The position numbers were made by a program, and so were the translations under genes. 64,000 bases of DNA from NCBI GenBank assembly GCA_028279505.1, contig JANQNP010000042.1, positions 93 through 64,092 on the forward strand, read 5' to 3'. This document shows positions 28,110 through 50,384 of the stretch, in pieces. Origin of the DNA: Dehalococcoidia bacterium (lineage in GTDB: Bacteria > Chloroflexota > Dehalococcoidia > UBA2979). The notes under the pieces were generated by a model. The model saw only the letters and a list, made by a program, of their open reading frames with translations, ran no database searches and was not told where the DNA came from. Position 1 is the first letter of the stretch. Each line of letters opens with the position of its first letter.

Positions 28110-28136
28110 GCCCTCCTCCCGCGGGGACCGACACCG

Positions 28137-28170
28137 ATGCCAAGAGAAGGGGGCGGCCGATCGGCCGCCC
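28137..28170. terminator. Intrinsic-terminator-like hairpin (12-bp GC stem, GATC loop) followed by a T-rich tract, between convergent genes
   Basis: AAGGGGGCGGCC gatc GGCCGCCCCCTT followed by CTTCTT. It can serve both convergent transcripts. Confidence 0.6.
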
Positions 28171-28209
28171 CCTTCTTCTTGTCCCGAGCGAGCGGCGGGC
28201 GCCGGCGTA

Positions 28210-29895
28210 CTAGTGGGTGTCGAAGATCGCCTGGTACTCGGCGACCTTCGCAGCCGTCGCGGCGACCTCGTCGGGCGTGGGGTTCGCCGGGTCGGCGGCG
28301 GGCGGGAGCGCGCCGAGCTTCAACAGCGCCGCCATCAGCAGGATGCGCGCCTTGGTGGAAGTCAGGTTGCTGCCCGCGATCTTGACCGGGTCGGTCTTGT
28401 AGGCGTTGCCGCCGGTCGCGCCGCGGCCGACGCCGACGACGGGCATCCCGCTGAACACGGCGCGCGTCAGCGCCTGGTCGGTCGCAGTGTTCATGCTGCC
28501 GTACGGCGACGCGCCTTCACCGACGAAGCCAGCGAGTGGCGCCGCCTCGAGGTTGCGAGCGATGCGACCGAGGATCTCGACTTCGCTGTCGGCGTCGACC
28601 TCAGGGCCCGGGGGCAGGTAGCGCGCGTACTTCGCGATGGTGACGCTGGGCATCGCCTCGGGGCGGAGCAGGCCATCCGCCGTCTTCACCGCGATCGGCT
28701 CCGTGTGGATGGCTGTGCCGTCGAGGCAGATGCCCGGAACGACATCCTGTAGCTGCGTGAGGTTCAGCTCGGATGACCAGGTGTGCTTGCGGCTGGGGAC
28801 GTAGGTGAGCTGCGGGGGTGCGTAGCCGTTCATCAGCGCGACGACGCCGCCGTGGCCGCCGGTCGCCTCGTAGTTGCCGGGGCGCGCGTCGGTCTTGGTC
28901 ACCTCGCGAGCGTGAAACACCTGCTCGTCGACGATCATCACGCCGCCGACCGTGTCCCGCTCGCCGCCGTTTCGCCAGACGTTCGAGAGGATGTACTTCA
29001 CCCCATCGACGATGTTGCGGTCGCCGTCGGCGCTCACGGTCTGATGCGGCCGCTGGGAAGAGTGGCCGACGAGCGGGATGGCGGTGTCGATCAGGAGGTT
29101 CAGCCAGTACATCGACTCCTCGGTGGTGGGACTGCCCTCGAGCCACTGGGCGCCGGCGTACTCGCCGCTCGCGAGGGTGGTGGCGACCATGTTGGTCGCC
29201 TTCGCGAGCGCGACGAGGTGTGGCTCCGCCCGCAGGTGGCGCGGGTAGTAGATGAAGAAGTCGTCGCCGAGGCGCTCGGGTGGGATGTCGCCTTCGCCGC
29301 GGTCGGTGCGCTGATCCTCGGGCAGGCCCTGCTTGTAGCCGCCCGACGGCGCCGCCCGGTAGAAGTCGAACGCCGCGACCGAGGACAGCAGGTTGTTGTG
29401 CCCATCGCTATCGACGCCGAAGCGGTCGATCTCCTCGTAGATGCGCGAGGCGTCGGGATAGAAGGTCTGGCGGGCGTGGTCCTCGGGCGCGTTGGGGAAG
29501 GCGCAGGCTTCCTCCCACGGCGAGCCGTCAGCCTGCCGCCCCATATAAGGGAGCAGGTAGAGGCCGTCCGATGGATCGAGGGTGGCGACCTGGACCGGGC
29601 GATCCTCGGCGGTGGTCGGCTCCTCGTGGAACGCGCCGTCCGCGTCGAGGTAGCCGTCGGGCGGGGCGTAGAGCGCGGCCGCGTCGGCCTCGAGGGGGTG
29701 GGCGCTGAGGTAGTCGATGTAGACCGTGACAGGGGCGGCGAGGCGCTGGGCGCGCAGGGCATCGAAGCCCTCGGCGGTGCCGTTCTCGGGCAGGGTGTGG
29801 CGCTGGCGGGCCTGGCGGCTGGTGATCAGCGGCGGGCTGTTCTGGATGGTCGCGGTCGGTCCGGAGAAGACCGCGATCCTCGGAAGGTCGGGCAT
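28210..29895 (-). CDS. Atypical L-asparaginase/glutaminase-superfamily protein with a large insertion and variant catalytic motifs
   Basis: ATG 29895 (MPDLPRIAVFSGPTATIQNS) aligns with the asparaginase N-terminal TGGTIAG region. The segment LEGSPTTEESMYWLNLLIDTAIPLVGHSSQRPHQTVSADGDRNIVDG parallels the asparaginase HGTDTMEETAYFLNL...PVVxVGAMRPSTAISADGPxNL block. The C-terminal GMPVVGVGRGATGGN block also fits. About 250 aa are inserted between the two motif regions. Confidence 0.4.
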   Translation of the reverse strand: MPDLPRIAVFSGPTATIQNSPPLITSRQARQRHTLPENGTAEGFDALRAQRLAAPVTVYIDYLSAHPLEADAAALYAPPDGYLDADGAFHEEPTTAEDRPVQVATLDPSDGLYLLPYMGRQADGSPWEEACAFPNAPEDHARQTFYPDASRIYEEIDRFGVDSDGHNNLLSSVAAFDFYRAAPSGGYKQGLPEDQRTDRGEGDIPPERLGDDFFIYYPRHLRAEPHLVALAKATNMVATTLASGEYAGAQWLEGSPTTEESMYWLNLLIDTAIPLVGHSSQRPHQTVSADGDRNIVDGVKYILSNVWRNGGERDTVGGVMIVDEQVFHAREVTKTDARPGNYEATGGHGGVVALMNGYAPPQLTYVPSRKHTWSSELNLTQLQDVVPGICLDGTAIHTEPIAVKTADGLLRPEAMPSVTIAKYARYLPPGPEVDADSEVEILGRIARNLEAAPLAGFVGEGASPYGSMNTATDQALTRAVFSGMPVVGVGRGATGGNAYKTDPVKIAGSNLTSTKARILLMAALLKLGALPPAADPANPTPDEVAATAAKVAEYQAIFDTH

Positions 29896-30116
29896 CTGTG
29901 GGCTCCGCTTGAGTGGCCTCGGGTGGATGCCTCGGACGCTACCGGTCGGGGATGTCGGGGCCATGACCGGCAGGTCTCGACGAGGTGCCGTGGAGGCAAC
30001 AACCCTCGGCCGCAGCCCTCGTCAACGGAGCACCGAACCGGGAGCTTCTCTTGCTCGTCGGTGTCGGAGACCTGCGAGCAGTGAGTCGATCGGGCTCCCC
30101 GAGGAGGGTTGAACGG

Positions 30117-31202
30117 CTAGGGAGCCGGTCGGGCCTCGGTTGCTGGCGGCGCGTGCGGCGCGTCCGACTCTTGGCCGGAGAGCCATCGGGTGAGATCGGC
30201 TAGCGATGTGAAACGCCGCTCCTCGTTGTTCGTCGTTACCCACCAGCGGTCGACGGGATCTCCAGCCTCGGATGTCACGCCGCAAACGATCGGCTTCCGC
30301 TCGCCGTCGCCGCTCTCATCCTCGGTCACGTCGAACCCCGAACGGAGCAGCGCCTGACGCAGCCAGTGGTGCTCGAGGGAGTCGCCCGTCACTCGGGCTC
30401 GGCGGCCCGGGTGGGGTGTTGGCGTGAAGTGACCCGTGGCGCGGTCGAACGCGACCTCGCTGCTGGAGAACGCGTGCTCCAGCAGGCCGTTGAGGACGAG
30501 ATCCTCGGGGGCGCCGCTCTCGAGCGAGCCGTCCTCGGTGATCAGCCAGAGGACATCGGCGGTACGCAGGGCGAGATCGAGGTCGTGCGTGGTCATCAGG
30601 ATCGCCAGCCCTCGTTCAGCCGCGAGCCGCCGAAGGAGGGCGGTGAGCTCGATCCGAGACGGGAGGTCGAGGAACGCGGTCGGCTCGTCGAGCAGCAGCA
30701 CCTTCGGCTCTTGCGCCAGCGCCCGGGCGATCATGACCCGCTGGCGCTCGCCGTCGGACAGCTCGGTGACGTCGCGATGCGCGAGGTGGCCGGACTGGGT
30801 GGCCTCCATCGCCCATTCGATCGTGGTGTGGTCCTCGGGACCGAGCCGGCCGAAGTATCCGGTGTGGGGGAAGCGGCCGAGTCCGACCAGCTCGTAGGCC
30901 GAGAGGTTCGCGATCTGCACGCGGTCGGTCAGGACCACGGCCAGTCGCCGGGCCAGGTCTTCGCTGGTCAGTCCGTCAAGTTCGTCACCGTCGAGGGACA
31001 CGGTGCCGGCGAAGGAGGGCTGCACGCGCGAGAGCGTTCGGAGCAGCGTCGACTTACCGGCGCCGTTGGGGCCGAGGAGGCACGCGAACTCCCCTCGGTC
31101 GAGGGCGACGCTCACCTCGCTGAGCACCACGCGACGGCGCCGGCGCGCGCGGTAGCCGATCTCCAACGACGACAGGCTGAGTACCGGCTCGGGCGGCGCC
31201 AT
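30117..31202 (-). CDS. ABC transporter ATP-binding protein, FecE/BtuD (iron-chelate/B12) type, with about 100-aa C-terminal extension
   Basis: Walker A (GPNGAGKST), signature (LSDGERQRVMIARA). ATGA overlap with the upstream permease. Confidence 0.8.
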   Translation of the reverse strand: MAPPEPVLSLSSLEIGYRARRRRRVVLSEVSVALDRGEFACLLGPNGAGKSTLLRTLSRVQPSFAGTVSLDGDELDGLTSEDLARRLAVVLTDRVQIANLSAYELVGLGRFPHTGYFGRLGPEDHTTIEWAMEATQSGHLAHRDVTELSDGERQRVMIARALAQEPKVLLLDEPTAFLDLPSRIELTALLRRLAAERGLAILMTTHDLDLALRTADVLWLITEDGSLESGAPEDLVLNGLLEHAFSSSEVAFDRATGHFTPTPHPGRRARVTGDSLEHHWLRQALLRSGFDVTEDESGDGERKPIVCGVTSEAGDPVDRWWVTTNNEERRFTSLADLTRWLSGQESDAPHAPPATEARPAP

Positions 31203-32323
31203 CAGCTACCCCAGCCTCGGCGCATGCGGAGGAGCACCCAGAAGGCGATCGGGCCACCGACGATCGCGGTGGCCGCGTTCACGGGGAGGGTGAGGTTGCT
31301 GTTCGGCATCTCGGCCAGCAGCCCGCAGCCGAGCGCGACCGAGGCGCCGGTGAGGGCGCTCCCCGGCACCAGGATCCGGTGATCGGCGGAACCGAAGATG
31401 CCGCGGGTGATGTGTGGGATCGCGATCCCGAGGAAGGCGATGGGTCCGGCGAAGGCGACGACGGCGCCTGCGAGGATCGAGGCGCTGGTCAGCGTCAGCG
31501 TTCGGGCTCGTCGCACGTTCAAGCCCATGCTCCGCGCGTAGTTCTCGCCCATCAGCAGCGCGTTGAGCTGCTTCATGGAGAGCGTGGCGACCACCGTTCC
31601 CGTGCCAACCGCGGTTGCGAAGAGCGGTACATCGCCCCAGCGGACCCGCTGGAAGCTCCCGAATCCCCACTCGACGAAGACCCGGGTCTGGTTCGGGTCG
31701 GCGAAGAAGACAAGGACGGTGACGAGCGCCCCGATCAGGGCGGAGAGGACGACGCCGAGCAGGAGCACGATCACCATGTCGCGCACGATGCTGGCGACCA
31801 CGAGCATGGCGAGCAGGATGACGCCCGCCCCGAGCGCGGCGCCGAAGACGAGGCCGACGCTGGAGAGGGCCTGTGCGACGCCGCTCGCCGCCGCGCCGTC
31901 ACGGTAGAGGCCGACCGTCAGGCCGGGCAGCACGATGATGACGAGTGCGGCACCGAGGCTGGCGCCCGAGACGACCCCGAGGGTGTACGGACTCGCGAGT
32001 GGGTTTCGGAAGACGGCCTGCATCTGGAGGCCCGCCAGGCCGAGGGCGACGCCAACCAGTGTCGCGGTGATCACTCGAGGAAGCCGGATGTCTAGAACGA
32101 TCGTCGTCCAGGCGTCCCGCTCGGCCGGACGGCCGAGCAGGATGCGCGCCACCTCGTCCCAGGGGACGCGGACGGACGACCAGCTCAGCGACAGGAGCAC
32201 CGCGAGGATGAACACCGCGATGAGGAGTGAGAAGGCCACGAGCGTCCGGGTCCGGCCCCGCGTGCGCGCCGTCTCGATGTTCGGCCGCTGACGGAGCGAG
32301 ACCGCGTCTGTTGACGAGGTCAC
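31202..32323 (-). CDS. FecCD-family ABC permease (iron-chelate/cobalamin type)
   Basis: GTG 32323 overlaps the regulator's TGA (GTGA). FecCD-like helices (LVGVALGLAGLQMQAVFRNPLASPYTLGVVSGASLG). The tool ORF extends 126 codons upstream through an Arg-rich nonsense region. Confidence 0.75.
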   Translation of the reverse strand: MTSSTDAVSLRQRPNIETARTRGRTRTLVAFSLLIAVFILAVLLSLSWSSVRVPWDEVARILLGRPAERDAWTTIVLDIRLPRVITATLVGVALGLAGLQMQAVFRNPLASPYTLGVVSGASLGAALVIIVLPGLTVGLYRDGAAASGVAQALSSVGLVFGAALGAGVILLAMLVVASIVRDMVIVLLLGVVLSALIGALVTVLVFFADPNQTRVFVEWGFGSFQRVRWGDVPLFATAVGTGTVVATLSMKQLNALLMGENYARSMGLNVRRARTLTLTSASILAGAVVAFAGPIAFLGIAIPHITRGIFGSADHRILVPGSALTGASVALGCGLLAEMPNSNLTLPVNAATAIVGGPIAFWVLLRMRRGWGS

Positions 32324-33888
32324 GGCTGCTCCATCCGCACGTGGAACAGCGGCTCGTGCTCCGGAAGTACCTCGGGCGAGATCAGCGCGATCAGGTCTGC
32401 CAGCATCAGGTCGACGCGGACCCCTCCGGTGTGGAGCACGTCGCGACCGCGCCCGAAGCGGTGGAACGCCGCACCTCGCCGAGTGGCCGCGATCTGGCCG
32501 TAGACCTCCGCGGCCGCGGGGGTTGGCGAGGTGGTCTCCCAGATCGAGCTGTACCAGCAGTCGGCGTCCGCCCCGAATGCCAGCGCCTCGTCGAGATCGA
32601 TCTCGCCGAGGGTTCCCGCCTCGTTGAGCCGGGGCGAGACGCCTGCCTCGCTCAGGACGTCCTCGCCGCCGGCGTCGCGCACCAGGCCGGGCAGGAGCCA
32701 ATGCGGCCAGAAGCTGTCCCAGCTGCCGCGGTCGTTCGGGTGGCCGATCAGCACTCGCGGCCGCTGGCGGCCTCGTCGCGCGCGCTGTCTGAGGTCCAGG
32801 TAGCGGGCCTCGATCGCGGCGAACTGGCGGTTCGCCTTGGCCTCGAGATTGAAGAAGAGCGAGGCGAACTTCAGCTGCTCCGCGCAGGCGAGCGGGGGCT
32901 CGACGGCGGGGAGGAAGAAGACGGTGGGGAACCCTCGGTTCCGCCGGTTACGCCGCCATCCATGGTTCAGGCCGTAGAAGTAGACGTCGGGCTCGAGAGC
33001 CCTGATGCGGGCGATCCGCTCGTCCTCGGTTCCCGGCAAGCTCGACTCCGAGACGATCTCGTCGACCCGCGCCGAAAGCGCGCCGAGGTGGTCGATTCCC
33101 GAGGGACGGGTCCGCCATCCGAGGAGGGCGTCGGCGACCTCGAGGAACTCGATCGCGCCGAGGAGGCGGGCCTCGTCGTGCCAGACGCGCCGCACCGGCA
33201 CCTCGATGACCGTGGCGCCGCTGAGCGGCCCGACCAACCGCGGCGGCGGCGTCCCACGTTGTACGAGGACGTAGACGTCCGGGTTCCGCATCCCCGGTCG
33301 CTCGATCTCGCTACTGACGGTGAGCACCTTGTAGCTGCGCTCGTACCGGACTCGCCAGCGCTTCGCGTACCGCGGCGAGACGCGGTCGGGGAAGTAGTCG
33401 ACCGACGGGTCGTAGCGTTCCACCGGCCGGTCCAGATTCTCGGACGGCGGTGCCTGCGGACGGAGCAGTCCGAGCGTGAACTCGAGGATCGCGTCACGCC
33501 CCACGGATTCGTCGAGAAGATTGGTGACCGCCGTCTGGACCGCTCGGACCTCGTGCGGGTCCAACCCGCCGGCGTCGAGTTTCGAGATCTCACGGGCCAG
33601 ACCCCGGCTCACGAGCGGGACGTTTTCCCGACGGACTTCGCCGGGAGACATCAGCTGCTCCATCACCGGGTGTGGCAGCAGCCCGGCGCGCTCGATCAGG
33701 ATCCTCGCATCGACCTCGAGGGCCAGCGCGAGACGACCGAGCATCTCCACGGTCGCCGGCTTCCGTCCGTTCTCGAGTTTGGACAGATGTCCGTCCGAGA
33801 CGCCCGACGCTTCAGCCAACCTGCTCAGGGTGAAGCCGCGCTCCTTTCGCAGGTCGCGCAACATGGCCCCGAGTTCAGAGTGGTTCAA
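32320..33888 (-). CDS. One-component transcriptional regulator: N-terminal XRE-family HTH fused to a class III periplasmic-binding-protein (FecB/BtuF-like) domain
   Basis: HTH present (MLRDLRKERGFTLSRLAEASGVSDGHLSKLENGRKPATVEMLGRLALAL). No signal peptide. The C-terminal about 420 aa are paralogous to the adjacent secreted SBPs (DYFPDRVSPRYAKRWRVRYERSYKVLTVS; ...EVLPEHEPLFHVRMEQP). TTG 33888 has an AAGAGG RBS; an alternative ATG lies at 33864. Confidence 0.65.
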   Translation of the reverse strand: MNHSELGAMLRDLRKERGFTLSRLAEASGVSDGHLSKLENGRKPATVEMLGRLALALEVDARILIERAGLLPHPVMEQLMSPGEVRRENVPLVSRGLAREISKLDAGGLDPHEVRAVQTAVTNLLDESVGRDAILEFTLGLLRPQAPPSENLDRPVERYDPSVDYFPDRVSPRYAKRWRVRYERSYKVLTVSSEIERPGMRNPDVYVLVQRGTPPPRLVGPLSGATVIEVPVRRVWHDEARLLGAIEFLEVADALLGWRTRPSGIDHLGALSARVDEIVSESSLPGTEDERIARIRALEPDVYFYGLNHGWRRNRRNRGFPTVFFLPAVEPPLACAEQLKFASLFFNLEAKANRQFAAIEARYLDLRQRARRGRQRPRVLIGHPNDRGSWDSFWPHWLLPGLVRDAGGEDVLSEAGVSPRLNEAGTLGEIDLDEALAFGADADCWYSSIWETTSPTPAAAEVYGQIAATRRGAAFHRFGRGRDVLHTGGVRVDLMLADLIALISPEVLPEHEPLFHVRMEQP

Positions 33889-33895
33889 CTGAACC
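33882..33895. promoter_or_regulatory. 14-bp palindrome GGTTCAacTGAACC overlapping the regulator start, in a 39-bp divergent intergenic region. Candidate autoregulatory operator.
   Basis: Perfect 6-bp arms with a 2-bp spacer. An AT-rich TATCGATA palindrome follows at about 33917-33924, upstream of the divergent SBP gene. Confidence 0.3.
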
Positions 33896-33927
33896 TCTTT
33901 CTGTCGGTTGGATCGGCTTATCGATAG

Positions 33928-35283
33928 TTGGTATCAGTACAGGCCATCATGCCGCAGGCGCAAGTCGCGCCGAGACGGAAGAAGGTCTTTGTGCGTCCAC
34001 GCCTCCCACTGTTGATCGGCCTCGGCCTGTTGCTTGGCCTGTTGATCGCCTGCAGCGATGACGATTCGCCGGAGGCGACTCCCGAGCCGACGGAGCGCGC
34101 CGAGCCCACGTCGACGGCCGCCGCGGCGACGCCGACCGCCGCGCCGCCAGCGCCGATCACCAGCAACCCCCAGGAGTGTGTGACGGACTTCCAGGACGGG
34201 ACGGACTACTTCCCCGACAAGGTGGAGGCGATCCACGCCGAGGGCTGGAGTGTGCGCTACGAGGGGCACTACAAGGTCTTGACCGTTGAGCCCGTGCCCA
34301 ACGTCCAGAACGCAAGGCAGGACACCTACGTCCTGGCGCAGTGTGGGGCGCCGGCGCCCGACCTCTCCGGCGATCTCGCGGACGCCCACGTGATCCCGAT
34401 CCCGGCGCAGAGCTTCTGGACCGCCTCGGGCAGCGGCTGGTTCGTGGCGCTCGAGACGCTCGGGCTGTCCGACGCCGTCCTGGGTGCGAACGTCCGCGCC
34501 GCCGGGTTGGAGTACCTCCCGAACATCAACCGCCGCTTCGAGGACGGGCTCGCGATCCCGGCGCGTGCCTCGAACAGCTTCGAGCCGATCCTCGAGGCCG
34601 AGCCGGAGCTCTTCCACGTCGCGTTCAGCTATGAGCTGACCGACCAGGCCCGGGACCTGGGCCTGAACGGAGTGACCTACAACTCGTTCTGGGAGCCGCC
34701 GCTCGGGAGCGCCGAGGAGATCAAGTTCGTCTCACTCTTCTTCAACGCCGAGGCGCGCGCGAACGAGGTCCTCGAACCGGTGATCGCGAACTACGAGGCG
34801 CTGCGCCAGCAGGTGGCGGATGCCGAGTCCGAGGATCCGACCGTCCTCTTCGGCTCGATCAACAACTCTGGTCTCTGGGCGACGCAGCCGGCCAACCGGA
34901 TCGACATCCGGTTGATCGAGGACGCGGGCGGAATCCCGATCCTCCAGCGCGAGGTGACTGACGTACCGCTGAACTCGCCGCTGCCGCTCGAGCGCGTCGT
35001 CGACCTCGGCGCGGACGCCGACATCTGGATCGACAACACCTACTTCGCGGACAGCCGGTTGGGCGATACCGTCGCGGGCTCGCTCGCCTACCAGCCGCTG
35101 AACAGCTCATTCGAGGCGCTGGCCGAGGGGCAGGCGATCCACCAGTTCGCGCGCGGGACCGACATCTTCGCGACCGGACAGAGCTTCCGCGTGGACATCC
35201 TGCTGCGCGACCTCGTCAGCGTGTTCCACCCGGAGCTGTTGCCGGAGCATGAGTTCGTCTGGCACACGCGACTCGAGCCGTAA
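33928..35283 (+). CDS. Class III periplasmic-binding lipoprotein (iron-chelate/B12-type SBP) with an N-terminal add-on domain
   Basis: Lipoprotein signal (RPRLPLLIGLGLLLGLLIACSDDDS). PBP core (IPIPAQSFWTASGSGWFVALETLGLSDAVLG). Paralogous to the regulator's C-terminal domain and to the SBP at 48724-50058. An alternative ATG lies at 33949. Confidence 0.7.
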   Translation: MVSVQAIMPQAQVAPRRKKVFVRPRLPLLIGLGLLLGLLIACSDDDSPEATPEPTERAEPTSTAAAATPTAAPPAPITSNPQECVTDFQDGTDYFPDKVEAIHAEGWSVRYEGHYKVLTVEPVPNVQNARQDTYVLAQCGAPAPDLSGDLADAHVIPIPAQSFWTASGSGWFVALETLGLSDAVLGANVRAAGLEYLPNINRRFEDGLAIPARASNSFEPILEAEPELFHVAFSYELTDQARDLGLNGVTYNSFWEPPLGSAEEIKFVSLFFNAEARANEVLEPVIANYEALRQQVADAESEDPTVLFGSINNSGLWATQPANRIDIRLIEDAGGIPILQREVTDVPLNSPLPLERVVDLGADADIWIDNTYFADSRLGDTVAGSLAYQPLNSSFEALAEGQAIHQFARGTDIFATGQSFRVDILLRDLVSVFHPELLPEHEFVWHTRLEP

Positions 35284-36305
35284 TGGAGGTCCGGCCGTAC
35301 GACCCCGCGCACCTCCGCGACGCGGCGGCGTTGCTCGCGCAGGCGCACGAAACTCGACTCGCGGGCCTGCCGGCGTTGCCGGCGGCCTTCCGCGATCCAG
35401 AGGAGGCTCGCCCGGTCCTCGAGGCGTTCGCGGGGCGATCGACGTGCTCCGGGTACAGCGCCTTCCGAGGCGGGCGCCTCGTGGGGTTCTTGCTTGCGAC
35501 CAGGCATCTTCCCGCCCCGTCGCAGCCGTTGAGCGCCTACGTCATGCCGCGCTCGACCTGGACGCCGACGCAAGCGTGGGCGGTCGGCGAGGACACCGAT
35601 CCTCGGACGGTATTCGAGGCGCTTTACGGCGCGGTCGCCGATGACGCGGTAGCGGAGGGTTACCTCAACCAGCAGGTCGAGGTGAACGCGGGCGATCCGG
35701 CGGAGGGGTGGCTCCTCGATCTGGGGTTCACGCGGAGCAGTGTGTACGCGGTGCTCCCGATCGGGGGTGGAGTGACCGGGGAGGATGCCGGCGGCGGTGC
35801 GGAGGCACCGGAGATCCGGTCAGCGCGTACCGGTGACGAAGAGCGCATCGTGGCGGTCGGCGAACTCGAGGCGGGGCACCACCGGACCTCGCCGGTCTTT
35901 CGGCCGGACCTCTCGCGGGACTACCGCGAGGCGTCCCTGGACTCGGCGGCCGATTTGATCGAGGCCGAGGGCCGCATGGCGTTCCTGGCGTTCGTGGACG
36001 GCGACTTCGTTGGTGGGATTCTCGCGAACGCGATGGGGAACGGGCGCCCGTTGCTTCGCCCGGCGAACAGCCTGTACATCGGCAGCACCGCCGTCTCGCC
36101 GGGACACCGTGGACGCGGCGTCGGTCAGGCGCTGCTCCGGGCGCTGCTGGCGGCAGCCCGATCACAGGGCTTCGAGCACGCCGTCCTCAACTACTCGCCC
36201 GCGAACGCGTCCGCACGACGGTTCTGGCACAAGATGGGGTTCCAGCCCCTGATGACGGCCTTCCAGCGGAGAATCGACCCGCGAATCGCATGGGGAGCGA
36301 GCTAG
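35283..36305 (+). CDS. GNAT-family N-acetyltransferase (two GNAT-like halves), translationally coupled to the SBP gene
   Basis: TAATG overlap. GNAT motif A region (VSPGHRGRGVGQALLRALLAAA). Confidence 0.65.
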   Translation: MEVRPYDPAHLRDAAALLAQAHETRLAGLPALPAAFRDPEEARPVLEAFAGRSTCSGYSAFRGGRLVGFLLATRHLPAPSQPLSAYVMPRSTWTPTQAWAVGEDTDPRTVFEALYGAVADDAVAEGYLNQQVEVNAGDPAEGWLLDLGFTRSSVYAVLPIGGGVTGEDAGGGAEAPEIRSARTGDEERIVAVGELEAGHHRTSPVFRPDLSRDYREASLDSAADLIEAEGRMAFLAFVDGDFVGGILANAMGNGRPLLRPANSLYIGSTAVSPGHRGRGVGQALLRALLAAARSQGFEHAVLNYSPANASARRFWHKMGFQPLMTAFQRRIDPRIAWGAS

Positions 36306-36359
36306 CGCCGGGCGCCCTCGGAGGTCCGACCGTCGAGGTCGGCGAGGGCTGCCGCGTCA

Positions 36360-36383
36360 ACCCCATTACACTCCGTGGGGTTG
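36360..36383. terminator. 7-bp stem hairpin between convergent GNAT and His-rich genes (weak terminator candidate)
   Basis: AACCCCA ttacactccg TGGGGTT, followed by GCGCGC palindromes. Confidence 0.3.
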
Positions 36384-36405
36384 GCGCGCTCCTCGCGTCA
36401 GCGCG

Positions 36406-45169: not shown

Positions 45170-46450
45170 TCAGTACAGCGGCAGCAGGTAGGAGGGGGCA
45201 GGCGGGAAGAGTGCATGGAGCACCGGGCGCGCCCTCGCACTGACCCCGATCCGGTAGGGGAACTGTGCCTCCAGCTGAGGCAGACCCGCGCGGCCGAACA
45301 GCAGCTCGAGGAAGGTGGCGTCGGCGAAGCGCGCGTCACCCTCGTGGATGCCGGTCTGGCGCCAGGGTTCCACTGTCACGCGGCCGTGATCGAACTGGAG
45401 CTCGACGCCGGGCTCGCGGTAGCGGCCGATCCGCAGGGCGCCGTGGTAGCCGGCCTCGTTGGATTGCGCGAGGCGCTCCTCCAGCGCGGGCGCGATGTGA
45501 GCCACGAAGGCTGGCACGTCCGGGATGCGCACGTACCAAGCACCGCGACGCAGCGGGGAGCCGAGCGTCTCGAACTGACCGAACAGATGCGGGCACGAGC
45601 TGAACGCCGGGTGATCCTCTCCCAGCCAGCCGAACGACCAGCTCGGGCGTTCGGAGACCTCGAGGCCGAGGGCGCCCTCGGCATGTTCCAACAACCATCG
45701 GGCGAGCGAGCCGGTCGCGAGGGACCAGGGCGTGGCCGGCGCGACCTCGAACGCGTCGATCGCGAGAGTGAGCGGGTGGATGGAGATGAACCCGACGGGG
45801 CGCGTCGGGGAGGTCAGGATGAAGAGCCGACGCGCCCACGCGTTTCGCGGGTCTCGCTTGAGCAGTTCGTACTCCCAGTGATCGCGTGTCCGCAGGTAGC
45901 TCACGCGGAGGCGCGGCGCGCCGGACTGGAAGGTCTGTTCGATGAAGTCGAGGTCGTCCGGCGTGGCCTCCCGCAGGGCGTAGGGCGCCTGCTCCGCCGG
46001 TACGGTCTGGGCGTACTCCCGGAAGAGCCGCCGGCCGTTGTGCTTGTCCAACGGCAGCTCGTACCCAAACTGGGTGTAGTACCAGGGGATGCCGTTGACG
46101 ACGGTCGCCAGCTCGCCGGCGGCGGCGCTCCAGTCGTGCATGACATCCGTCTGGCGACGAATCAGGCCGCGCCGGCGATAGTCGACGCGGGTGGAAACGT
46201 GCTCGATCTCCCCCACGGGAAACTCGACGCCGCCGTACGCCCAGCGGTGATGCGAGAAGTGCTGCGACGACACGATCCGGCCGGTCGCGACCTCCTCCAC
46301 CACGGTCATCTCGGTACCGGAGAACGTCGGGTGTGGCCGCTCGAGCAGATCGCGAAGCTGGTGTTCGTCAGCCGTGGATCGGGCTTCGCCGTGCGTTTCT
46401 CGATGCAGGTCGATGAGCGCCGGAACGTCGTCGGCCGCGGCCCGCCGCAT
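45170..46450 (-). CDS. GNAT-family acetyltransferase with a large C-terminal extension (Eis-like architecture)
   Basis: ATG 46450 (MRRAAADDVPALIDLHRETHGE). GNAT core (VEEVATGRIVSSQHF...VDYRRRGLIRRQ). About 426 aa. Confidence 0.5.
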   Translation of the reverse strand: MRRAAADDVPALIDLHRETHGEARSTADEHQLRDLLERPHPTFSGTEMTVVEEVATGRIVSSQHFSHHRWAYGGVEFPVGEIEHVSTRVDYRRRGLIRRQTDVMHDWSAAAGELATVVNGIPWYYTQFGYELPLDKHNGRRLFREYAQTVPAEQAPYALREATPDDLDFIEQTFQSGAPRLRVSYLRTRDHWEYELLKRDPRNAWARRLFILTSPTRPVGFISIHPLTLAIDAFEVAPATPWSLATGSLARWLLEHAEGALGLEVSERPSWSFGWLGEDHPAFSSCPHLFGQFETLGSPLRRGAWYVRIPDVPAFVAHIAPALEERLAQSNEAGYHGALRIGRYREPGVELQFDHGRVTVEPWRQTGIHEGDARFADATFLELLFGRAGLPQLEAQFPYRIGVSARARPVLHALFPPAPSYLLPLY

Positions 46451-46530
46451 CAGCAGGCCCTCGCCCACGTCACCGAGATCACGGGGTTCCACCTCAGGGC
46501 TCACGACCGACTCTCCCTTCGCGATGACGC

Positions 46531-47544
46531 TCAAGACGCAGCGGGTGCCATTACCCGCGCGATGAGGTCGCTAATCGAAGTCACCGTCTCGTCGGACGGG
46601 AGGCGCCAGCCGTCGCCCTCGACGCAAACGTCGGCGGATTCGCCTCGTGCGGCCGGGCGCACCTCGAACCCCAGGCGCGTCAGCGCCCGCACCGTCCAGA
46701 GGCGCCGAACGCCCTCGTCGCCGCCGACGCGAAGCGTCCCCCTGGTGGCCTCTGGCGAGACGCGGAAGCCGCCCGCCTCGTGTTCGAAGACCAGCCGGTC
46801 GTCGGAGAACTCCTCGGAGAGGACGCCGGTGAGCGCGATGTCCTCGGGCGGTGCGGTGATCAGCTCACCGGACTGACGGATGAGCCAGGCAGTGTCGGCC
46901 GTGCGCAGCGCGAGCTCGAGGTCATGGGTGGACATCAGCACGGCGATGCCCGCGCTGTGCGTGAGGTCGCGGAGCAAGGCCGTCAGGCGCACACGATGCG
47001 CGACGTCGAGGAAGGCGGTGGGTTCGTCGAGGAGCATCACGCGCGGGGACTGCGCCACCGCGCGAGCGATCAGCACCCGCTGTCGTTCGCCGTCGCTCAG
47101 GCTCGTGATCGGACGTTCGACGAGATGCTCGCAGCGGGTGACCGCGATCGACTCCTCGACGATGCGATGGTCCTCGGCGGAGAGCCGGCCGTGCCACCCG
47201 GTGAACGGGTGGCGGCCCAGCCGCACGACGTCGAGGCCGGTCAGGTGGCGCGCGAAGGTGCGCTCGGTCAGGACGAGCGAGATCGTGCGAGCGCGGGCGA
47301 TCCCGGAGAGGCGGGTGACACCGACACCGTCGAGTTCGACGCCGCCGCTGAGCGCCGGCTGGAGCCCAGCGAGCGTGCGCATCAGCGTGGACTTGCCGGC
47401 GCCGTTGATCCCGAGGAGGCAGGCGAACTCCCCAGGCCGCAACGCGGCCGTGGCCTCCCGCACCACCTCGGTGGTCTGTCGCCCGGAGCGGTAGCCGGCG
47501 GTGAGTCGATCGGTGCGGAGCGGTGCGATCTCCTCGGCGGTCAC
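46531..47544 (-). CDS. ABC transporter ATP-binding protein, FecE/BtuD type, with C-terminal extension
   Basis: GTG 47544 overlaps the permease TGA (GTGA). Walker A (GINGAGKST), signature (LSDGERQRVLIARA). Confidence 0.8.
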   Translation of the reverse strand: MTAEEIAPLRTDRLTAGYRSGRQTTEVVREATAALRPGEFACLLGINGAGKSTLMRTLAGLQPALSGGVELDGVGVTRLSGIARARTISLVLTERTFARHLTGLDVVRLGRHPFTGWHGRLSAEDHRIVEESIAVTRCEHLVERPITSLSDGERQRVLIARAVAQSPRVMLLDEPTAFLDVAHRVRLTALLRDLTHSAGIAVLMSTHDLELALRTADTAWLIRQSGELITAPPEDIALTGVLSEEFSDDRLVFEHEAGGFRVSPEATRGTLRVGGDEGVRRLWTVRALTRLGFEVRPAARGESADVCVEGDGWRLPSDETVTSISDLIARVMAPAAS

Positions 47545-48638
47545 AGGTCGGCAGTCCCGCTCTCGCGAGCGGACCTCAGGAGGACCCACACGACGACGGG
47601 CGCACCGAAGAGCGCCGTTGCCGCGTTGATCGGCAGCGTCGCGTTCCGGCCCGGCATCTGCGCCAACGCTCCGCACAGGCAGGCCAGCGCGACGCCGATG
47701 AGGATGCAGGCCGGGAAGAGCAGCCGCTGGTCCGCGGTCCTCAGGACCCCACGGGCCAAGTGGGGTACCGCGAGGCCGATGAAGCCGATGGGGCCGCAGA
47801 ACGACGTCACGACTCCGGCGATCAGCGCGGCGGAGAGCATCGTGACCAGCCGCAGCCGGAAGACCGACACACCGACCGAGGCGGCGTACTGGTCGCCCAA
47901 CAGCATGGCGTTCAGGCCTTTGGTGCCGATCGCACCGGCGCTGACGCCGATCAGCACGATCGCCGCGAACGCCGGCAACTGATCTCGCGTCACGCCCTGG
48001 AACGAGCCAAACGTCCACACGGAGAAGGCCTGCACGGACTCCGGCGTGGAGAAGTAGACCAGGATGCTCACGATGGAGTAGGAGAACGCGCCGACGGCCA
48101 CGCCGACGATCAAGACCGTCGCGACGTTCCGGAACCACGACGCCACGACGAGCATGACGGAGAGGACCGCCATCGCTCCGATACTGGCCGCGAAGACGAT
48201 GATGAGGTTCCGCTCAAGGCCCACGCCCGCGAGCAAGCCACCACTCGCGCTGACGCCGGCCGACAGGATCACGAAGCCAACCCCGAGTGACGCTCCGGAC
48301 GAGACGCCGAGGATGTATGGATCAGCAAGGCCGTTCCGGAACAGCGTCTGCATCTGCAGGCCAGCGACCCCGAGGGACCCACCGACGAGCGCGGCGGTGG
48401 CCGCTCGAGGTACCCGCAACTCGGTGACGATCGGTCCCCAGACCGGGTTCTCTACCGTGCCTCCGGTGAGCACCGTGAAGACTGCCCGGGGCGGGATGAG
48501 CACCGAACCAACAGCGAGGGCGACCACGAGCCCCGCCCCAGCGAGGACCGTGAGGACGATGAAGGTGATCGTCAATCGCAGGGTCGCGCCGCCGCGTACG
48601 CGATCGGGAGCGGTGCGACGTTGGCGTACGAGGTGCAC
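47541..48638 (-). CDS. FecCD-family ABC permease
   Basis: FecCD-like helices (LVGGSLGVAGLQMQTLFRNGLADPYILGVSSGASLG). GTG start at 48638. Confidence 0.8.
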   Translation of the reverse strand: MHLVRQRRTAPDRVRGGATLRLTITFIVLTVLAGAGLVVALAVGSVLIPPRAVFTVLTGGTVENPVWGPIVTELRVPRAATAALVGGSLGVAGLQMQTLFRNGLADPYILGVSSGASLGVGFVILSAGVSASGGLLAGVGLERNLIIVFAASIGAMAVLSVMLVVASWFRNVATVLIVGVAVGAFSYSIVSILVYFSTPESVQAFSVWTFGSFQGVTRDQLPAFAAIVLIGVSAGAIGTKGLNAMLLGDQYAASVGVSVFRLRLVTMLSAALIAGVVTSFCGPIGFIGLAVPHLARGVLRTADQRLLFPACILIGVALACLCGALAQMPGRNATLPINAATALFGAPVVVWVLLRSARESGTADL

Positions 48639-48723
48639 AAGTACCCCTCACGCAAGGCGCCATCGAGAGGAGCGGAGCGGCGGGCGGAGTTCCGCCCGCT
48701 GCTCCGCTAGTACGTGGGGCCTC

Positions 48724-50058
48724 CTACTGACCCGGGAAGGGGCTGATCCCCATGTAGGTGAGCGTGTGATCCGGCACCAGCTCCGGGTACACCTGGGCCA
48801 CGATGTCCTGCAGCAAGACGTCAGGGCGCAGCGCTCCCGAGTAGAAGTACTCGTAGACGCCGTCGCGCACGCTCACGCCTTCGGCGTCGTTGGAGATGAT
48901 CTGGTTCTCCTGGAACGCGCGGAACGAGGGCATCAGCGGTCCGGTGTACTTCTCACCCGGCCAGCTGAACGAGACGAGCCAGTCGGCTTCCGCGCCGGCT
49001 TCGAAGACCTGCTCGATTGACCACCGTTCCAGGCCTAGCGGGGCCGTTGGGTCAGCGATCACGTTGACCAGTCCTGCGTCCTCGAGCATCTCCGCCTGCC
49101 AGCCGTTGCGGGCGACGGTGCACTCGCCGTTCGTCCCACACTGGGCGAAGATCACGGTCGGCTGGTCCGCCTGTGCACTCGCCTGCGCGGCGAGCTCGCG
49201 GTAGTCATCCAGCACGTTGCCGAGCACCTCGTTCGCCCGCACCTCCTGGTTGAAGGGGAGTGCGATCACCTTCGCCCACTCGGCTCTGCCCAGGACGGTG
49301 GTCGCACCGGAGGTGAGTGTCGGGACGGTTGGGATGCCGAGTTCTGCGAGCTGCTCCACGCCAGCCAGCGCCGCCTCGCTGCTGAGGAACAACAACATGA
49401 CGTCGGGATCCTGGGCCGCGACGGCCTCGAAGTCCATGTTCTGGGCGCCGAAGGCGGCGCCGTTCGGGACGATCTCGCCGGCCTCGATGCGAGCATCGAT
49501 GTCTTCCGGGAAGACGCTGGGGAAGCCGTGCGTGACGAGGTTGTCGGTGAGACCGAGCGCGACGGCGGAAGCGAGGTCATCGTTCCGGTTGAGGCCGAAC
49601 GTCGTCGCTGGGACCTCGATCAGCGTCGCGTCCGCGAGGTCGCCCGTCAGCTCAGGCGCCGGCGTCCCGCACTGGACCATGACCACGACCTGGGGCGCCA
49701 TGCCCTCGAATTTAAGGTCGGTGCGGACGGTCAGGACTTTGTAGTTGTTCTCGTACTGGATCTCGAAGTCGGTGGCTTCCTCGACGGTGATCTTGTCGGG
49801 GAAGTAGTCGATCTCGGAGTCGTACGACTCGACGCAGCCCTCGGTGATGTTGGTCGTTGGAGCCTCAGCGGCCGGGGTCGTCGCCGTAGCCTCGGCGGTT
49901 GCCGTTGCGGTGGGTTCGGAGGGAGCGGGAGTGGAGGTCGCCGTCGCCTCATCGTCTGAATCGTCGCCACAGGCGACGAAGGCGATGGCCACGACCACCG
50001 CGGCGATACCTACAGTCCACCGAGCGAGAGCACGGCGATACGAAGGAGTGACAGACAT
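48724..50058 (-). CDS. Class III periplasmic-binding lipoprotein (iron-chelate/B12-type SBP), paralog of 33928-35283
   Basis: ATG 50058 is preceded by GGAAAGG. Lipobox (IAAVVVAIAFVACGDDSDD). Shared motifs DYFPDK...YKVLTV and ELVPDH. Confidence 0.7.
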   Translation of the reverse strand: MSVTPSYRRALARWTVGIAAVVVAIAFVACGDDSDDEATATSTPAPSEPTATATAEATATTPAAEAPTTNITEGCVESYDSEIDYFPDKITVEEATDFEIQYENNYKVLTVRTDLKFEGMAPQVVVMVQCGTPAPELTGDLADATLIEVPATTFGLNRNDDLASAVALGLTDNLVTHGFPSVFPEDIDARIEAGEIVPNGAAFGAQNMDFEAVAAQDPDVMLLFLSSEAALAGVEQLAELGIPTVPTLTSGATTVLGRAEWAKVIALPFNQEVRANEVLGNVLDDYRELAAQASAQADQPTVIFAQCGTNGECTVARNGWQAEMLEDAGLVNVIADPTAPLGLERWSIEQVFEAGAEADWLVSFSWPGEKYTGPLMPSFRAFQENQIISNDAEGVSVRDGVYEYFYSGALRPDVLLQDIVAQVYPELVPDHTLTYMGISPFPGQ

Positions 50059-50094
50059 CTGACGCCTTTCCGGCAGAACAGTTAATTGAGACGG

Positions 50095-50124
50095 AGTATC
50101 ATGCACTAGCAGATACTTAGTATC
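50095..50124. promoter_or_regulatory. Operator-like cluster of GATACT/AGTATC hexamers upstream of the SBP-permease-ATPase operon (Fur-box-like)
   Basis: AGTATC at 50095. 13-bp palindrome GATACTtAGTATC at 50112-50124. AT-rich island 35-70 bp upstream of the SBP start codon. Confidence 0.35.
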
Positions 50125-50384
50125 AATGTGCGCTCTCGCCTTCGACCCCGAGGTCCATCGGATGGCCGGAGCTCGCGCTCACGTAGCCAGGTGCCTCATC
50201 GAGCGGCGGCAGAGCCAATACTGCGGTCCACGAAGGCGGCCTAAGAGTTTCTGAGAGTAGTGGCGGGGGACCTTGGTGCCGGCCGGGCGCAGAGCCCTTG
50301 CGACCACTGCCAACGACGGCTTCCTCCGGACCCAAGAAGAGAACGTCGGCGGACCGGCGGGCGTGGTGCCTGGCGGGACTGGCG

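What the first reader, a model, noticed from the sequence alone, without database searches (positions are those of the whole stretch)
30117..50058. Three paralogous 'DYFPDK...YKVLTV' binding proteins and two FecCD/FecE importers, each followed by a GNAT acyltransferase
The locus holds two complete FecCD-type permease/ATPase pairs and three paralogous class III binding domains. Two are lipoproteins and one is fused to the HTH regulator. All share an N-terminal add-on domain (DYFPDK...W.V.YE..YKVLTV) and the C-terminal E(L/V)(L/V)P(E/D)H motif. Each system ends with a GNAT-family acetyltransferase: 35283-36305 is coupled to the SBP by TAATG, and 45170-46450 follows the ATPase. Both ATPases carry a roughly 100-aa C-terminal extension. 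The recurring transporter-acyltransferase pairing suggests the imported chelate, or its released metal-free ligand, is N-acylated after uptake.
Basis: partly seen in the sequence, partly recalled or inferred. Interest (0 to 1): 0.5.

Follow-up and report, generated by a model that had tools for sequence, protein, structure and literature searches.

The report
Metal-starvation chelate importers with built-in acetyltransferases
Two duplicated chelate-uptake pumps, from a transporter family that elsewhere sits behind vitamin-B12 riboswitches, are here controlled by a Fur-type (probably zinc-starvation) operator, and each carries its own acetyltransferase gene, with one binding protein converted into a transcription factor.

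Summary
The window has two FecCD/ATPase pairs, three paralogous class III binding domains (two lipoproteins, one XRE-HTH fusion), a GNAT after each system, and extended ATPases. The iron-siderophore reading is not supported.

The binding-protein N-extension and the ATPase C-extension are traits of a whole family (392 genome hits). In about 45 of 79 related loci the family is preceded by a cobalamin riboswitch. The window's clades lack the riboswitch. They carry a 7-1-7 Fur-type box instead (TGA[G/T]ACT-N-AGT[A/C]TCA; 3 sites at ≤1 mismatch, 0 expected). In relatives the same box precedes COG0523 and ribosomal-paralog genes, which is a Zur-regulon signature.

GNAT2 homologs at 34-41% identity are not transporter-linked. 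GNAT1 synteny is seen only in two close relatives.

Best reading: metal-starvation chelate importers (zinc or cobalt chelate) with post-uptake N-acylation. The substrate and the acyl acceptor are unproven. The XRE-HTH–binding-protein fusion is rare (three clusters among 1.84 billion representatives) and is probably a cytoplasmic ligand sensor.

The parts
30117..31202 (-). ABC ATPase A (361 aa) with a ~90-aa C-terminal extension
   Evidence: PF00005, E 8e-31. The start overlaps the permease stop as TGATG. The C-extension is conserved in 61 related loci and has no Pfam match.
31202..32323 (-). FecCD-type permease A (373 aa)
   Evidence: PF01032, E 4e-72. The GTG start overlaps the HTH-SBP stop as GTGA.
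32320..33888 (-). XRE-HTH fused to a class III binding-protein domain (522 aa); predicted cytoplasmic ligand sensor and regulator
   Evidence: HTH_31/HTH_3 at residues 5-62 and a weak Peripla_BP_2 match at 294-453. It is 34% identical to SBP1 (E 3e-60). It has no signal peptide and has lost both Cys of the pair kept by about 75% of secreted family members. Only three 50%-identity clusters among 1.84 billion representatives share the architecture.
33922..33936 (.). Fur-type 7-1-7 box (weak copy) in the ~60-nt divergent intergenic region
   Evidence: CGATAGTTGGTATCA, 3 mismatches. The orthologous intergenic regions have TGATACTACGTATCA (L081) and TGATACCAACTATCA (L169) at the same place.
33949..35283 (+). 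Lipoprotein binding protein SBP1 (444 aa from ATG 33949; the ORF opens at TTG 33928)
   Evidence: Lipobox LLIAC. Paralog of SBP3 (E 3e-43). No Pfam hit at E 0.01, but it falls in the family tree with the L081 ortholog.
35283..36305 (+). GNAT1 (340 aa); GNAT core only at residues 212-320
   Evidence: PF00583, E 4e-20. TAATG overlap with the SBP1 stop. Motif A is HRGRGVG. Orthologs sit in the same position in L081 and L169. The N-terminal 200 aa have no Pfam match.
36699..37049 (-). ArsR/SmtB-family regulator
   Evidence: PF01022, E 3e-13. A homolog is also present in L082.
37148..37828 (-). SAM-dependent methyltransferase
   Evidence: Methyltransf_11/25. Homologs flank the GNAT2-transporter operons in L083/L084 (E 2e-19) and L082.
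37909..37923 (.). Fur-type 7-1-7 box between the methyltransferase gene and the glyoxalase-like/Fur operon
   Evidence: TGAGACTTTGTATCA, 1 mismatch. Zero such sites are expected by chance in the window.
38015..38713 (+). Glyoxalase_3-like protein
   Evidence: PF13468, E 2e-19. ATG read at 38015.
38775..39206 (+). Fur-family metalloregulator (candidate binder of the box)
   Evidence: PF01475, E 2e-23. The Fur/Zur/PerR/Nur subtype is not resolvable. It is only 28-36% identical to the Fur-family genes next to relatives' transporters.
39279..40916 (-). Thioredoxin-reductase-like flavoprotein fused to a methyltransferase
   Evidence: Pyr_redox_2 plus Methyltransf_25. The flavoprotein half matches ~305-aa proteins next to COG0523 and the tandem SBPs in L006, L025 and L042 (E 1e-45 to 1e-48).
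40949..41560 (+). XRE-HTH/cupin regulator
   Evidence: HTH_3 plus Cupin_2.
41577..45152 (-). Fused CydD/CydC-like ABC exporter (1191 aa), 17 nt downstream of GNAT2
   Evidence: Two ABC_membrane plus two ABC_tran domains. The N-half matches CydD and the C-half matches CydC. GAGGAG Shine-Dalgarno sequence and ATG follow the GNAT2 stop.
45170..46504 (-). GNAT2, Eis-fold three-domain acetyltransferase (444 aa)
   Evidence: PF13527. AF2 pLDDT 90. Foldseek gives full-length matches to Eis, Eis2, 4my3 and 2hv2 (E 1e-18, ~450 columns). RRRGL motif is present. It is in the transporter operon in 7 lineages.
46531..47544 (-). ABC ATPase B (337 aa) with C-terminal extension
   Evidence: PF00005, E 1e-24. 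GTGA overlap with the permease B stop.
47541..48638 (-). FecCD-type permease B (365 aa)
   Evidence: PF01032, E 4e-67.
48724..50058 (-). Lipoprotein binding protein SBP3 (444 aa)
   Evidence: PF01497, E 2e-12. Identical to P0001, 444 aa. Lipobox FVAC. The AF2 model is a class III SBP.
50087..50125 (.). Two tandem Fur-type 7-1-7 boxes, 29-67 nt upstream of the SBP3 start
   Evidence: TGAGACGGAGTATCA and AGATACTTAGTATCA, 1 mismatch each. Homologous boxes lie upstream of the SBP in L003, L004, L083, L082, L081 and the Dehalococcoidia loci.

Best explanation
The locus is a metal-starvation island with two paralogous type II (BtuCD/FecCD-type) ABC importers. They belong to a distinctive subfamily: the binding protein has an N-terminal hairpin extension, usually disulfide-stapled, and the ATPase has an ~85-aa C-terminal domain.

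The main sister clade of this subfamily lies behind cobalamin riboswitches, so it probably imports corrinoids. In the window's clades the riboswitch is replaced by a Fur-family 7-1-7 operator. In relatives the same operator also precedes COG0523 and ribosomal-protein paralog genes. The systems are therefore most likely derepressed under zinc starvation (a Zur-type regulon). They probably import a chelated metal: either a zincophore complex or a cobalt chelate that spares zinc.

Each operon carries an acyl-CoA N-acyltransferase. The Eis-fold GNAT2 is a conserved operon member. It most plausibly N-acylates the imported amine-bearing chelator, or the freed ligand, in the cytoplasm. This would release the metal or prevent re-chelation. 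The CydDC-like exporter immediately downstream is a candidate route for disposal or recycling.

The XRE-HTH–binding-domain fusion is the first gene of the permease operon. It is inferred to sense the imported ligand in the cytoplasm and add ligand-specific control on top of the metal regulator.

Shown: gene identities, paralogy, folds, operon coupling, conserved synteny, the riboswitch/box dichotomy. Inferred: zinc as the signal, the nature of the cargo, the acyl acceptor, the sensor role.
For: - Components and operon coupling.
- Family breadth: 392 genome hits, with the SBP-permease-ATPase cassette conserved.
- Riboswitch: Rfam finds a cobalamin riboswitch directly upstream of the SBP in 10 of 10 Chloroflexota/Actinomycetota loci in one batch. 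A core covariance model hits about 45 of 79 loci, always on the SBP strand. There is none in the window or in the box-bearing relatives.
- Box: 3 sites at ≤1 mismatch against 0 expected. It is conserved upstream of orthologous SBPs. In L082 it lies upstream of cobW/COG0523, an L32 paralog, the SBP-GNAT2 operon and a second FecCD system. In L083 it sits in the divergent region between the SBP operon and a Fur-family gene whose cluster also holds COG0523 (CobW) and a ribosomal S18 paralog.
- The tree separates riboswitch and box clades. Residues invariant in the riboswitch clade (T175, W329, R391, E422) are replaced in the box clades.
- COG0523 and a TrxR-like flavoprotein also neighbour the Bacteroidota members.
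- GNAT2: Eis fold and in-operon synteny in 7 lineages with two gene orders.
- Precedents: a Zur-regulated siderophore/B12-like ABC importer brings in pyochelin-cobalt under zinc starvation (PMC11481552). FiuC acetylates ferrichrome for metal release (PMC7699141). COG0523 and paralogs mark Zur regulons (PMC2770081).
Against: - No ligand is identified, and the fold search does not discriminate siderophore, haem or B12 binders.
- The box resembles a generic Fur box. The window's Fur-family protein is only 28-36% identical to those beside relatives' transporters and cannot be typed.
- The canonical actinobacterial Zur box is absent.
- The L82 L32 paralog keeps several cysteines, and gene calls around the L083 S14-like ORF are unreliable.
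- GNAT2 homologs at 34-41% identity are never transporter-linked, so the family's ancestral substrate is something else.
- GNAT1 synteny rests on two close (82-83%) relatives.
- The exporter is not consistently adjacent in relatives.
- No chelator-biosynthesis genes were recognised in the window.
Confidence: 0.45

Rival explanations
1. The two systems are still corrinoid (B12/cobamide) importers like their riboswitch-controlled relatives. Only the regulation has changed, from an RNA sensor to protein sensors (the Fur-type box plus the HTH-binding-domain fusion acting as a protein B12 sensor). The GNATs and methyltransferases act on something else or on corrinoid side chains.
For: The nearest large clade is riboswitch-controlled. 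The best NCBIfam hits are the corrinoid ABC ATPase and BtuF. The SBP N-extension and ATPase C-extension are shared with the riboswitch clade. COG0523/CobW-type genes and a flavoprotein reductase are recurrent neighbours.
Against: Residues invariant in the riboswitch clade are not kept in the window's clades. The clades are only about 30-35% identical to riboswitch members. No B12-dependent enzyme or cob gene is in the window. The box also precedes ribosomal paralogs, which points to zinc. No known role exists for N-acylation of corrinoids (own knowledge).
Confidence: 0.2
2. They are ferric-siderophore importers under an iron-sensing Fur. The GNATs act like FiuC and acetylate the desferri-siderophore, which is essentially the first reader's model.
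For: The box is one position away from the classical Fur 7-1-7 half-site (the B. subtilis consensus is from own knowledge). FecCD/Peripla_BP_2 is the typical siderophore machinery, and the structural neighbours are mostly siderophore binders. A TrxR-like flavoprotein could be a ferric-chelate reductase. L082 has a two-permease siderophore-type system behind the same box. FiuC is a precedent.
Against: The same box precedes COG0523 and ribosomal-protein paralogs, which are hallmarks of zinc rather than iron regulons. No siderophore biosynthesis, SIP/FhuF or bacterioferritin genes are nearby. The family's other members are B12-riboswitch controlled.
Confidence: 0.15
3. The GNATs are co-transcribed passengers or have a protein or other small-molecule target, for example acetylation of a transporter component, a ribosomal or regulatory protein, or a toxic co-imported amine. 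They do not act on the imported chelate.
For: The GNAT2 family is large (more than 260 homologs) and mostly stand-alone in Chloroflexota. Eis-type enzymes acetylate many amines and also protein lysines (PDB titles). GNAT1 and GNAT2 are unrelated subfamilies. GNAT genes are very common in high-GC genomes (own knowledge).
Against: GNAT2 is retained in the operon across 49-76% identity. It even sits between the SBP and permease genes in L082 and L167, with overlapping codons. Two different GNATs ending two paralogous systems is unlikely by chance (inference).
Confidence: 0.2

Closest known systems
BtuFCD-type cobalamin importers under cobalamin riboswitch control (e.g. Anabaena alr4031-4033, PMC10878165)
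   Same: Type II ABC importer with a class III binding protein, a FecCD-fold permease and an ATPase. The sister clade of the same SBP family is preceded by cobalamin riboswitches in about 45 loci.
   Different: The window has no riboswitch. The SBP has an N-terminal hairpin extension and the ATPase a C-terminal domain that are not covered by solved BtuF/BtuD structures. Riboswitch-clade signature residues are not conserved. Whether the Anabaena BtuF belongs to this SBP family was not checked.
Pseudomonas aeruginosa PA2911-PA2914 (Zur-regulated siderophore/B12-like ABC importer for pyochelin-cobalt) with the PA4063-4066 exporter (PMC11481552)
   Same: A chelate-type ABC importer behind a Zur-type operator, paired with an exporter and used under zinc starvation.
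   Different: This is a Gram-positive-type lipoprotein system without a TonB receptor. It has an Eis-like GNAT in the operon, a different exporter type (CydDC-like rather than MacB), and no demonstrated cargo.
FiuC-dependent ferrichrome pathway of P. aeruginosa
   Same: A GNAT encoded with the uptake genes acetylates the imported chelator in the cytoplasm as part of metal release (PMC7699141).
   Different: FiuC homology was not tested here. The transporter there is a proton-motive-force-dependent permease (FiuB), not an ABC importer, and the metal is iron.
Eis / Eis2 (mycobacterial enhanced intracellular survival acetyltransferases) and Eis-like proteins 4my3, 2hv2, 3n7z
   Same: GNAT2 shares the full three-domain fold (GNAT, GNAT-like, SCP2-like), the Acetyltransf_9 domain and the RRRGL acetyl-CoA motif.
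   Different: Identity is only 13-17%. GNAT2 is about 40 aa longer and sits in a transporter operon. Its substrate is unknown.
Btr (Bacillus subtilis bacillibactin sensor)
   Same: A DNA-binding domain is fused N-terminally to a domain homologous to the cognate class III siderophore-binding protein, and the protein regulates the matching ABC importer (PMC3333878).
   Different: The DNA-binding domain here is XRE-type, not AraC-type. The gene is the first cistron of the permease operon. The ligand is unknown and the architecture is rare.

Membership tests
Type II ABC importer (FecCD/BtuCD type, class III / cluster A-II binding protein) | FecCD-family permease | tested here: met
   PF01032, E 4e-72 and 4e-67, full-length.
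Type II ABC importer (FecCD/BtuCD type, class III / cluster A-II binding protein) | Class III binding-protein fold (two Rossmann-like lobes joined by a long helix) | tested here: met
   The AF2 model of SBP3 (pLDDT 88) matches YiuA, CeuE, FhuD and haem binders (Foldseek E 1e-12, TM 0.6-0.76 normalised to the target). Pfam Peripla_BP_2 is above cut-off for SBP3 only.
Type II ABC importer (FecCD/BtuCD type, class III / cluster A-II binding protein) | Cognate ABC ATPase in the operon | tested here: met
   PF00005 in both ATPases. Stop and start codons overlap with the permease genes.
Cobalamin (BtuFCD) importer | Cobalamin riboswitch upstream | tested here: not met
   No Rfam hit in the window at gathering score and no hit with the core model. 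Also absent in the closest relatives. Present in about 45 more distant family loci.
Cobalamin (BtuFCD) importer | Conservation of the residues invariant in the riboswitch-controlled clade | tested here: not met
   T175, W329, R391 and E422 (100% in 39 riboswitch-clade sequences) are N/G, C/F, L and Y/S in the window's clades. Their location in the binding cleft was not verified.
Cobalamin (BtuFCD) importer | Binding or transport of cobalamin | not testable with these tools
   Needs biochemistry.
Zur (zinc-starvation) regulon | Fur-family palindromic operator overlapping the promoter | tested here: met
   7-1-7 boxes at 50087-50125, 37909-37923 and (weak) 33922-33936. There are 3 sites at ≤1 mismatch against 0 expected. 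They are conserved in orthologous positions.
Zur (zinc-starvation) regulon | Same operator upstream of hallmark zinc-regulon genes (COG0523, ribosomal paralogs) | tested here: inconclusive
   Met in relatives: L082 (cobW, L32) and L083 (divergent from a Fur-family gene in a cluster that also holds CobW/COG0523 and an S18 paralog). No such genes lie in the window itself. The C-minus status of the paralogs is unclear.
Zur (zinc-starvation) regulon | Regulator identifiable as Zur; zinc-responsive expression | tested here: inconclusive
   The Fur-family protein scores similarly against Fur, PerR, Nur and Zur. It is 28-36% identical to relatives' neighbours. Expression is not testable here.
Eis-type GNAT | Three-domain Eis fold with N-terminal Acetyltransf_9 domain | tested here: met
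   PF13527. The profile hits Eis 3sxn at E 1.5e-5. Foldseek aligns ~450 columns to Eis, Eis2, 4my3 and 2hv2.
Eis-type GNAT | Multi-site acetylation of aminoglycosides or lysines | not testable with these tools
   Needs enzymology.
FiuC-like post-uptake chelator acetylation | GNAT encoded within the uptake operon | tested here: met
   GNAT1 overlaps SBP1 as TAATG. GNAT2 lies 27 nt after ATPase B. GNAT2 synteny holds in 7 lineages.
FiuC-like post-uptake chelator acetylation | Sequence relationship to FiuC; acetylated ligand as product | not tested
Btr-like binding-protein-domain transcription factors | DNA-binding domain fused to a class III SBP-like ligand domain, cytoplasmic | tested here: met
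   HTH at residues 5-62 and the SBP paralog at residues 150-522. There is no signal peptide and the Cys pair is lost in all four fusions.
Btr-like binding-protein-domain transcription factors | AraC-type DNA-binding domain | tested here: not met
   The domain is XRE/Cro-C1 type (PF13560, PF01381).

The most novel reading that the evidence does not exclude
The riboswitch-less clades of this importer family are a previously unrecognised zinc-starvation uptake route for a chelated metal, either a zincophore or a cobalt chelate/corrinoid-like compound that substitutes for zinc. In this route an Eis-fold acetyltransferase is an obligatory cytoplasmic step. The XRE-HTH–class III binding-domain fusion is a new kind of one-component sensor, a protein counterpart of the riboswitch that controls the sister clade.
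Probability: 0.2. Interest if true: 0.75.

Novelty: new variant of a known kind. Interest (0 to 1): 0.55.

Why it matters
- It defines a large, uncharacterised subfamily of type II ABC importers (hundreds of genomes across Chloroflexota, Actinomycetota, Acidobacteriota and Bacteroidota). The subfamily has its own structural hallmarks.
- Within one family, control has switched between an RNA sensor (the cobalamin riboswitch) and a Fur-type metal operator. This gives a natural experiment on how cargo and regulation co-evolve.
- Zur-controlled chelate importers with unknown cargo are an open question in metal homeostasis. An in-operon Eis-like acetyltransferase gives a concrete biochemical handle: find what it acetylates.
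- The HTH–binding-domain fusion offers a ready-made ligand trap.
- If the acylation step is real, post-uptake chelator modification would no longer be a Pseudomonas ferrichrome curiosity but a broader strategy.

Tried and rejected
- The canonical actinobacterial Zur box TGAAAATNATTTTCA gave only one 3-mismatch hit inside a gene, so it was rejected.
- An exact look-up of the window's SBP3 contig found nothing. The closest relatives are MAGs labelled Acidimicrobiales, Dehalococcoidia and Spirochaetales.
It was replaced by a 54-nt core model.
- Pfam at E ≤ 1 on the ATPase C-extensions and the GNAT1 N-half returned nothing.
- The Fur-family subtype could not be assigned from NCBIfam or PDB hits.
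- I tested whether GNAT1 is the partner of the ~340-aa GNAT that often sits upstream of distant GNAT2 homologs. Only a weak match to the generic GNAT core was found (E 2e-9), so this was rejected as evidence of a conserved GNAT1-GNAT2 pair.
- The fold search of the SBP did not discriminate ligand class.
- No GNAT was found next to riboswitch-clade or Bacteroidota transporters.
- The exporter is not consistently syntenic with GNAT2, so the 'acetylate then export' step stays speculative.

Full report
**Anatomy**

The window is about 70% G+C, so genes were called by third-position GC bias. The finding resolves into two operon sets and a block of genes between them.

System A:
- On the minus strand lie an XRE-HTH–binding-domain fusion (33888-32320), a FecCD permease (32323-31202) and an ABC ATPase (31202-30117). 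They are joined by GTGA and TGATG overlaps.
- Divergently, on the plus strand, lie lipoprotein SBP1 (33949-35283) and GNAT1 (35283-36305), joined by TAATG.

System B is on the minus strand:
- Lipoprotein SBP3 (50058-48724), permease (48638-47541) and ATPase (47544-46531).
- GNAT2 follows (most likely 46504-45170).
- Seventeen nucleotides later comes a fused CydD/CydC-like ABC exporter (45152-41577).

Between the two systems lie an ArsR-family regulator, a SAM methyltransferase, a glyoxalase-like gene followed by a Fur-family regulator, a thioredoxin-reductase-like/methyltransferase fusion, and an XRE-cupin regulator.

**Check of the observation**

- The three binding domains are true paralogs (E 3e-43 and 3e-60).
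- Both lipoproteins have lipoboxes.
- The shared N-terminal and C-terminal motifs are real.
- Both ATPases carry an ~85-100-aa extension.

An AlphaFold2 model of SBP3 (pLDDT 88) refines the picture of the 'add-on'. It is an extended segment plus a beta-hairpin (residues ~90-127) placed on a canonical class III binding protein. The nearest solved structures are siderophore and haem binders at about 15% identity.

Two cysteines are present in about 75% of family members. One is in the extension and one is in the QCGTP strand loop. Both are lost in all four HTH fusions examined, which fits a disulfide staple in secreted forms and a cytoplasmic location for the fusion.

GNAT1 and GNAT2 are unrelated GNAT subfamilies.

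**The family and its regulation**

A genome-collection scan found 392 relatives of the binding protein, and 79 loci were retrieved. In almost all of them the SBP-permease-ATPase cassette is intact. The ATPase C-terminal extension is present in 61 loci.

Rfam found a cobalamin riboswitch immediately upstream of the binding-protein gene in all ten Chloroflexota/Actinomycetota loci of one batch. A 54-nt core covariance model built from these hits extended this to about 45 of 79 loci. Every hit was on the binding-protein strand.

No riboswitch was found in:
- the window and its closest relatives;
- the Dehalococcoidia double-domain forms;
- the Bacteroidota tandem-SBP loci.

**A Fur-type operator replaces the riboswitch**

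Upstream of SBP3 are two tandem copies of a 7-1-7 palindrome, TGA[G/T]ACT-N-AGT[A/C]TCA. A third copy lies between the methyltransferase gene and the glyoxalase/Fur operon. A weak copy lies in the tiny HTH-SBP/SBP1 intergenic region. At ≤1 mismatch there are 3 sites against 0 expected.

The box is conserved at the orthologous positions in L003, L004, L081, L083, L169 and the Dehalococcoidia loci.

It resembles the classical Fur-family 7-1-7 element (own knowledge). Its regulon context points to zinc:
- In L082 it precedes a COG0523 (CobW-like) gene, a ribosomal L32 paralog, the SBP-GNAT2 operon, a luciferase-like/methyltransferase pair, and a second FecCD system.
- In L083 a single box sits between the SBP operon and a Fur-family gene, in a cluster that also holds COG0523 (CobW) and a ribosomal S18 paralog.
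- COG0523 genes and paralogs of zinc proteins are the recognised signature of Zur regulons (PMC2770081).

A neighbour-joining tree of 107 binding domains places riboswitch-controlled members in one clade and box-controlled members in two others. The HTH fusion groups with the SBP1 clade. Residues invariant in the riboswitch clade are replaced in the box clades. This suggests a different cargo, though their position in the cleft was not verified.

COG0523 genes also flank Bacteroidota members of the family. So does a ~305-aa flavoprotein homologous to the N-half of the window's 39279-40916 gene.

Caveats on the zinc assignment:
- The window's Fur-family protein cannot be typed.
- It is only 28-36% identical to the regulators beside relatives' transporters.
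- The canonical actinobacterial Zur box is absent.

**The acetyltransferases**

GNAT2 has the complete three-domain Eis fold (AF2 pLDDT 90; Foldseek E 1e-18 over ~450 columns to Eis, Eis2, 4my3 and 2hv2). It also has the RRRGL acetyl-CoA motif.

Homologs of 49-76% identity are in the transporter operon in seven lineages, in two arrangements:
- SBP-permease-ATPase-GNAT2 in the window, L001/L002, L003, L004+L165 and L083/L084.
- SBP-GNAT2-permease-ATPase in L082 and L167/L168.

Codons overlap at the junctions.

The link is lineage-specific. None of 80 metagenome loci with 34-41%-identical homologs has a transporter nearby. No riboswitch-clade locus has an adjacent GNAT.

GNAT1 has a competent motif A and an uncharacterised N-half. 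It follows the SBP1 ortholog in L081 and L169, but both are close relatives.

**The regulator fusion**

A search of 1.84 billion cluster representatives found only three clusters with the full HTH-plus-binding-domain architecture. The closest analogue is Btr of Bacillus subtilis, where an AraC-type domain is fused to a FeuA-like domain that senses bacillibactin (PMC3333878). Here the DNA-binding domain is XRE-type, and the gene is translationally coupled to the permease.

**Mechanism proposed**

- Under metal starvation, most likely zinc, the Fur-type repressor releases both systems.
- The lipoproteins capture a chelated metal and the importers deliver it.
- The GNATs N-acylate the amine-bearing ligand, to free the metal or block re-chelation.
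- The CydDC-like exporter may remove the product.
- The HTH fusion senses the ligand.

Two precedents support the logic:
- The Zur-regulated PA2911-2914 importer brings in pyochelin-cobalt to offset zinc deficiency, and it is paired with an exporter (PMC11481552).
- FiuC acetylates ferrichrome (PMC7699141).

The cargo, the signal metal and the acyl acceptor are inferred, not shown.

Rivals:
- Retained corrinoid transport with protein-based control.
- An iron-siderophore system under Fur.
- GNATs with an unrelated target.

**Verdict**

This is a new variant of known chelate importers. It has several uncommon features and offers clear experiments.

Noticed in passing
L036, L037, L057, L058, L063, L065, L069, L071, L072, L079 (e.g. 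L036:9536-12286); proteins P0066, P0017: Dehalococcoidia relatives encode 730-910-aa proteins with two Peripla_BP_2 stretches, i.e. two binding domains fused in one polypeptide. They are preceded by the same Fur-type box rather than a riboswitch.
   Followed up: partly
L005-L013, L025, L039, L042, L051, L054 (e.g. L039:5034-11179): Bacteroidota, Rhodothermales and Gemmatimonadota loci carry two to five tandem paralogous binding-protein genes upstream of a single permease/ATPase pair. Several also have an adjacent COG0523 gene and a TrxR-like flavoprotein.
   Followed up: partly
L167:150-200: The binding-protein gene has an in-frame TGA exactly at the conserved Trp of the '...W.V.YE' motif (AQD*QVRYEKNYKV). 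This may be a sequencing error, a pseudogene or recoding. The gene caller starts the protein after it.
   Followed up: no
window 33882-33895: A perfect 6-2-6 palindrome GGTTCAACTGAACC spans the TTG start of the HTH-SBP gene and is conserved in L081 and L169. It could be an autoregulatory operator, or it may simply reflect conserved coding sequence.
   Followed up: partly
L023:810-960, 7485-7635, 9336-9486: One Chloroflexaceae locus has three near-identical cobalamin riboswitch copies within 9 kb, each on the strand of the transporter genes.
   Followed up: no
window 7842-11447: A second fused ABC exporter (1201 aa) lies in a stretch with unusually strong GC skew (0.19-0.25 against about 0.05 elsewhere). 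Next to it is an SBP_bac_5/Opp-type importer and an alpha/beta hydrolase.
   Followed up: no
window 18844-29964: Upstream of the finding is an Opp/Nik-type ABC system (SBP_bac_5, oligo_HPY ATPase), followed by two amidases and an asparaginase-like protein. No Fur-type box was found there at ≤1 mismatch.
   Followed up: no
L085-L164 (e.g. L089:1188-2177, L161:6651-7661): In 18 of 80 loci, distant GNAT2 homologs are immediately preceded on the same strand by one to three ~340-aa two-domain GNAT genes. This is a conserved GNAT-GNAT neighbourhood in Chloroflexota-like contigs that is unrelated to transporters.
   Followed up: partly
L083:3927-4340: The reading frame between the Fur-family gene and the small ORFs looks like a RimJ/RimL-type GNAT (MPDPLRFPVPTSFETPRLLLRPF...). 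Automatic gene calls in this part of the zinc-type cluster appear unreliable.
   Followed up: no
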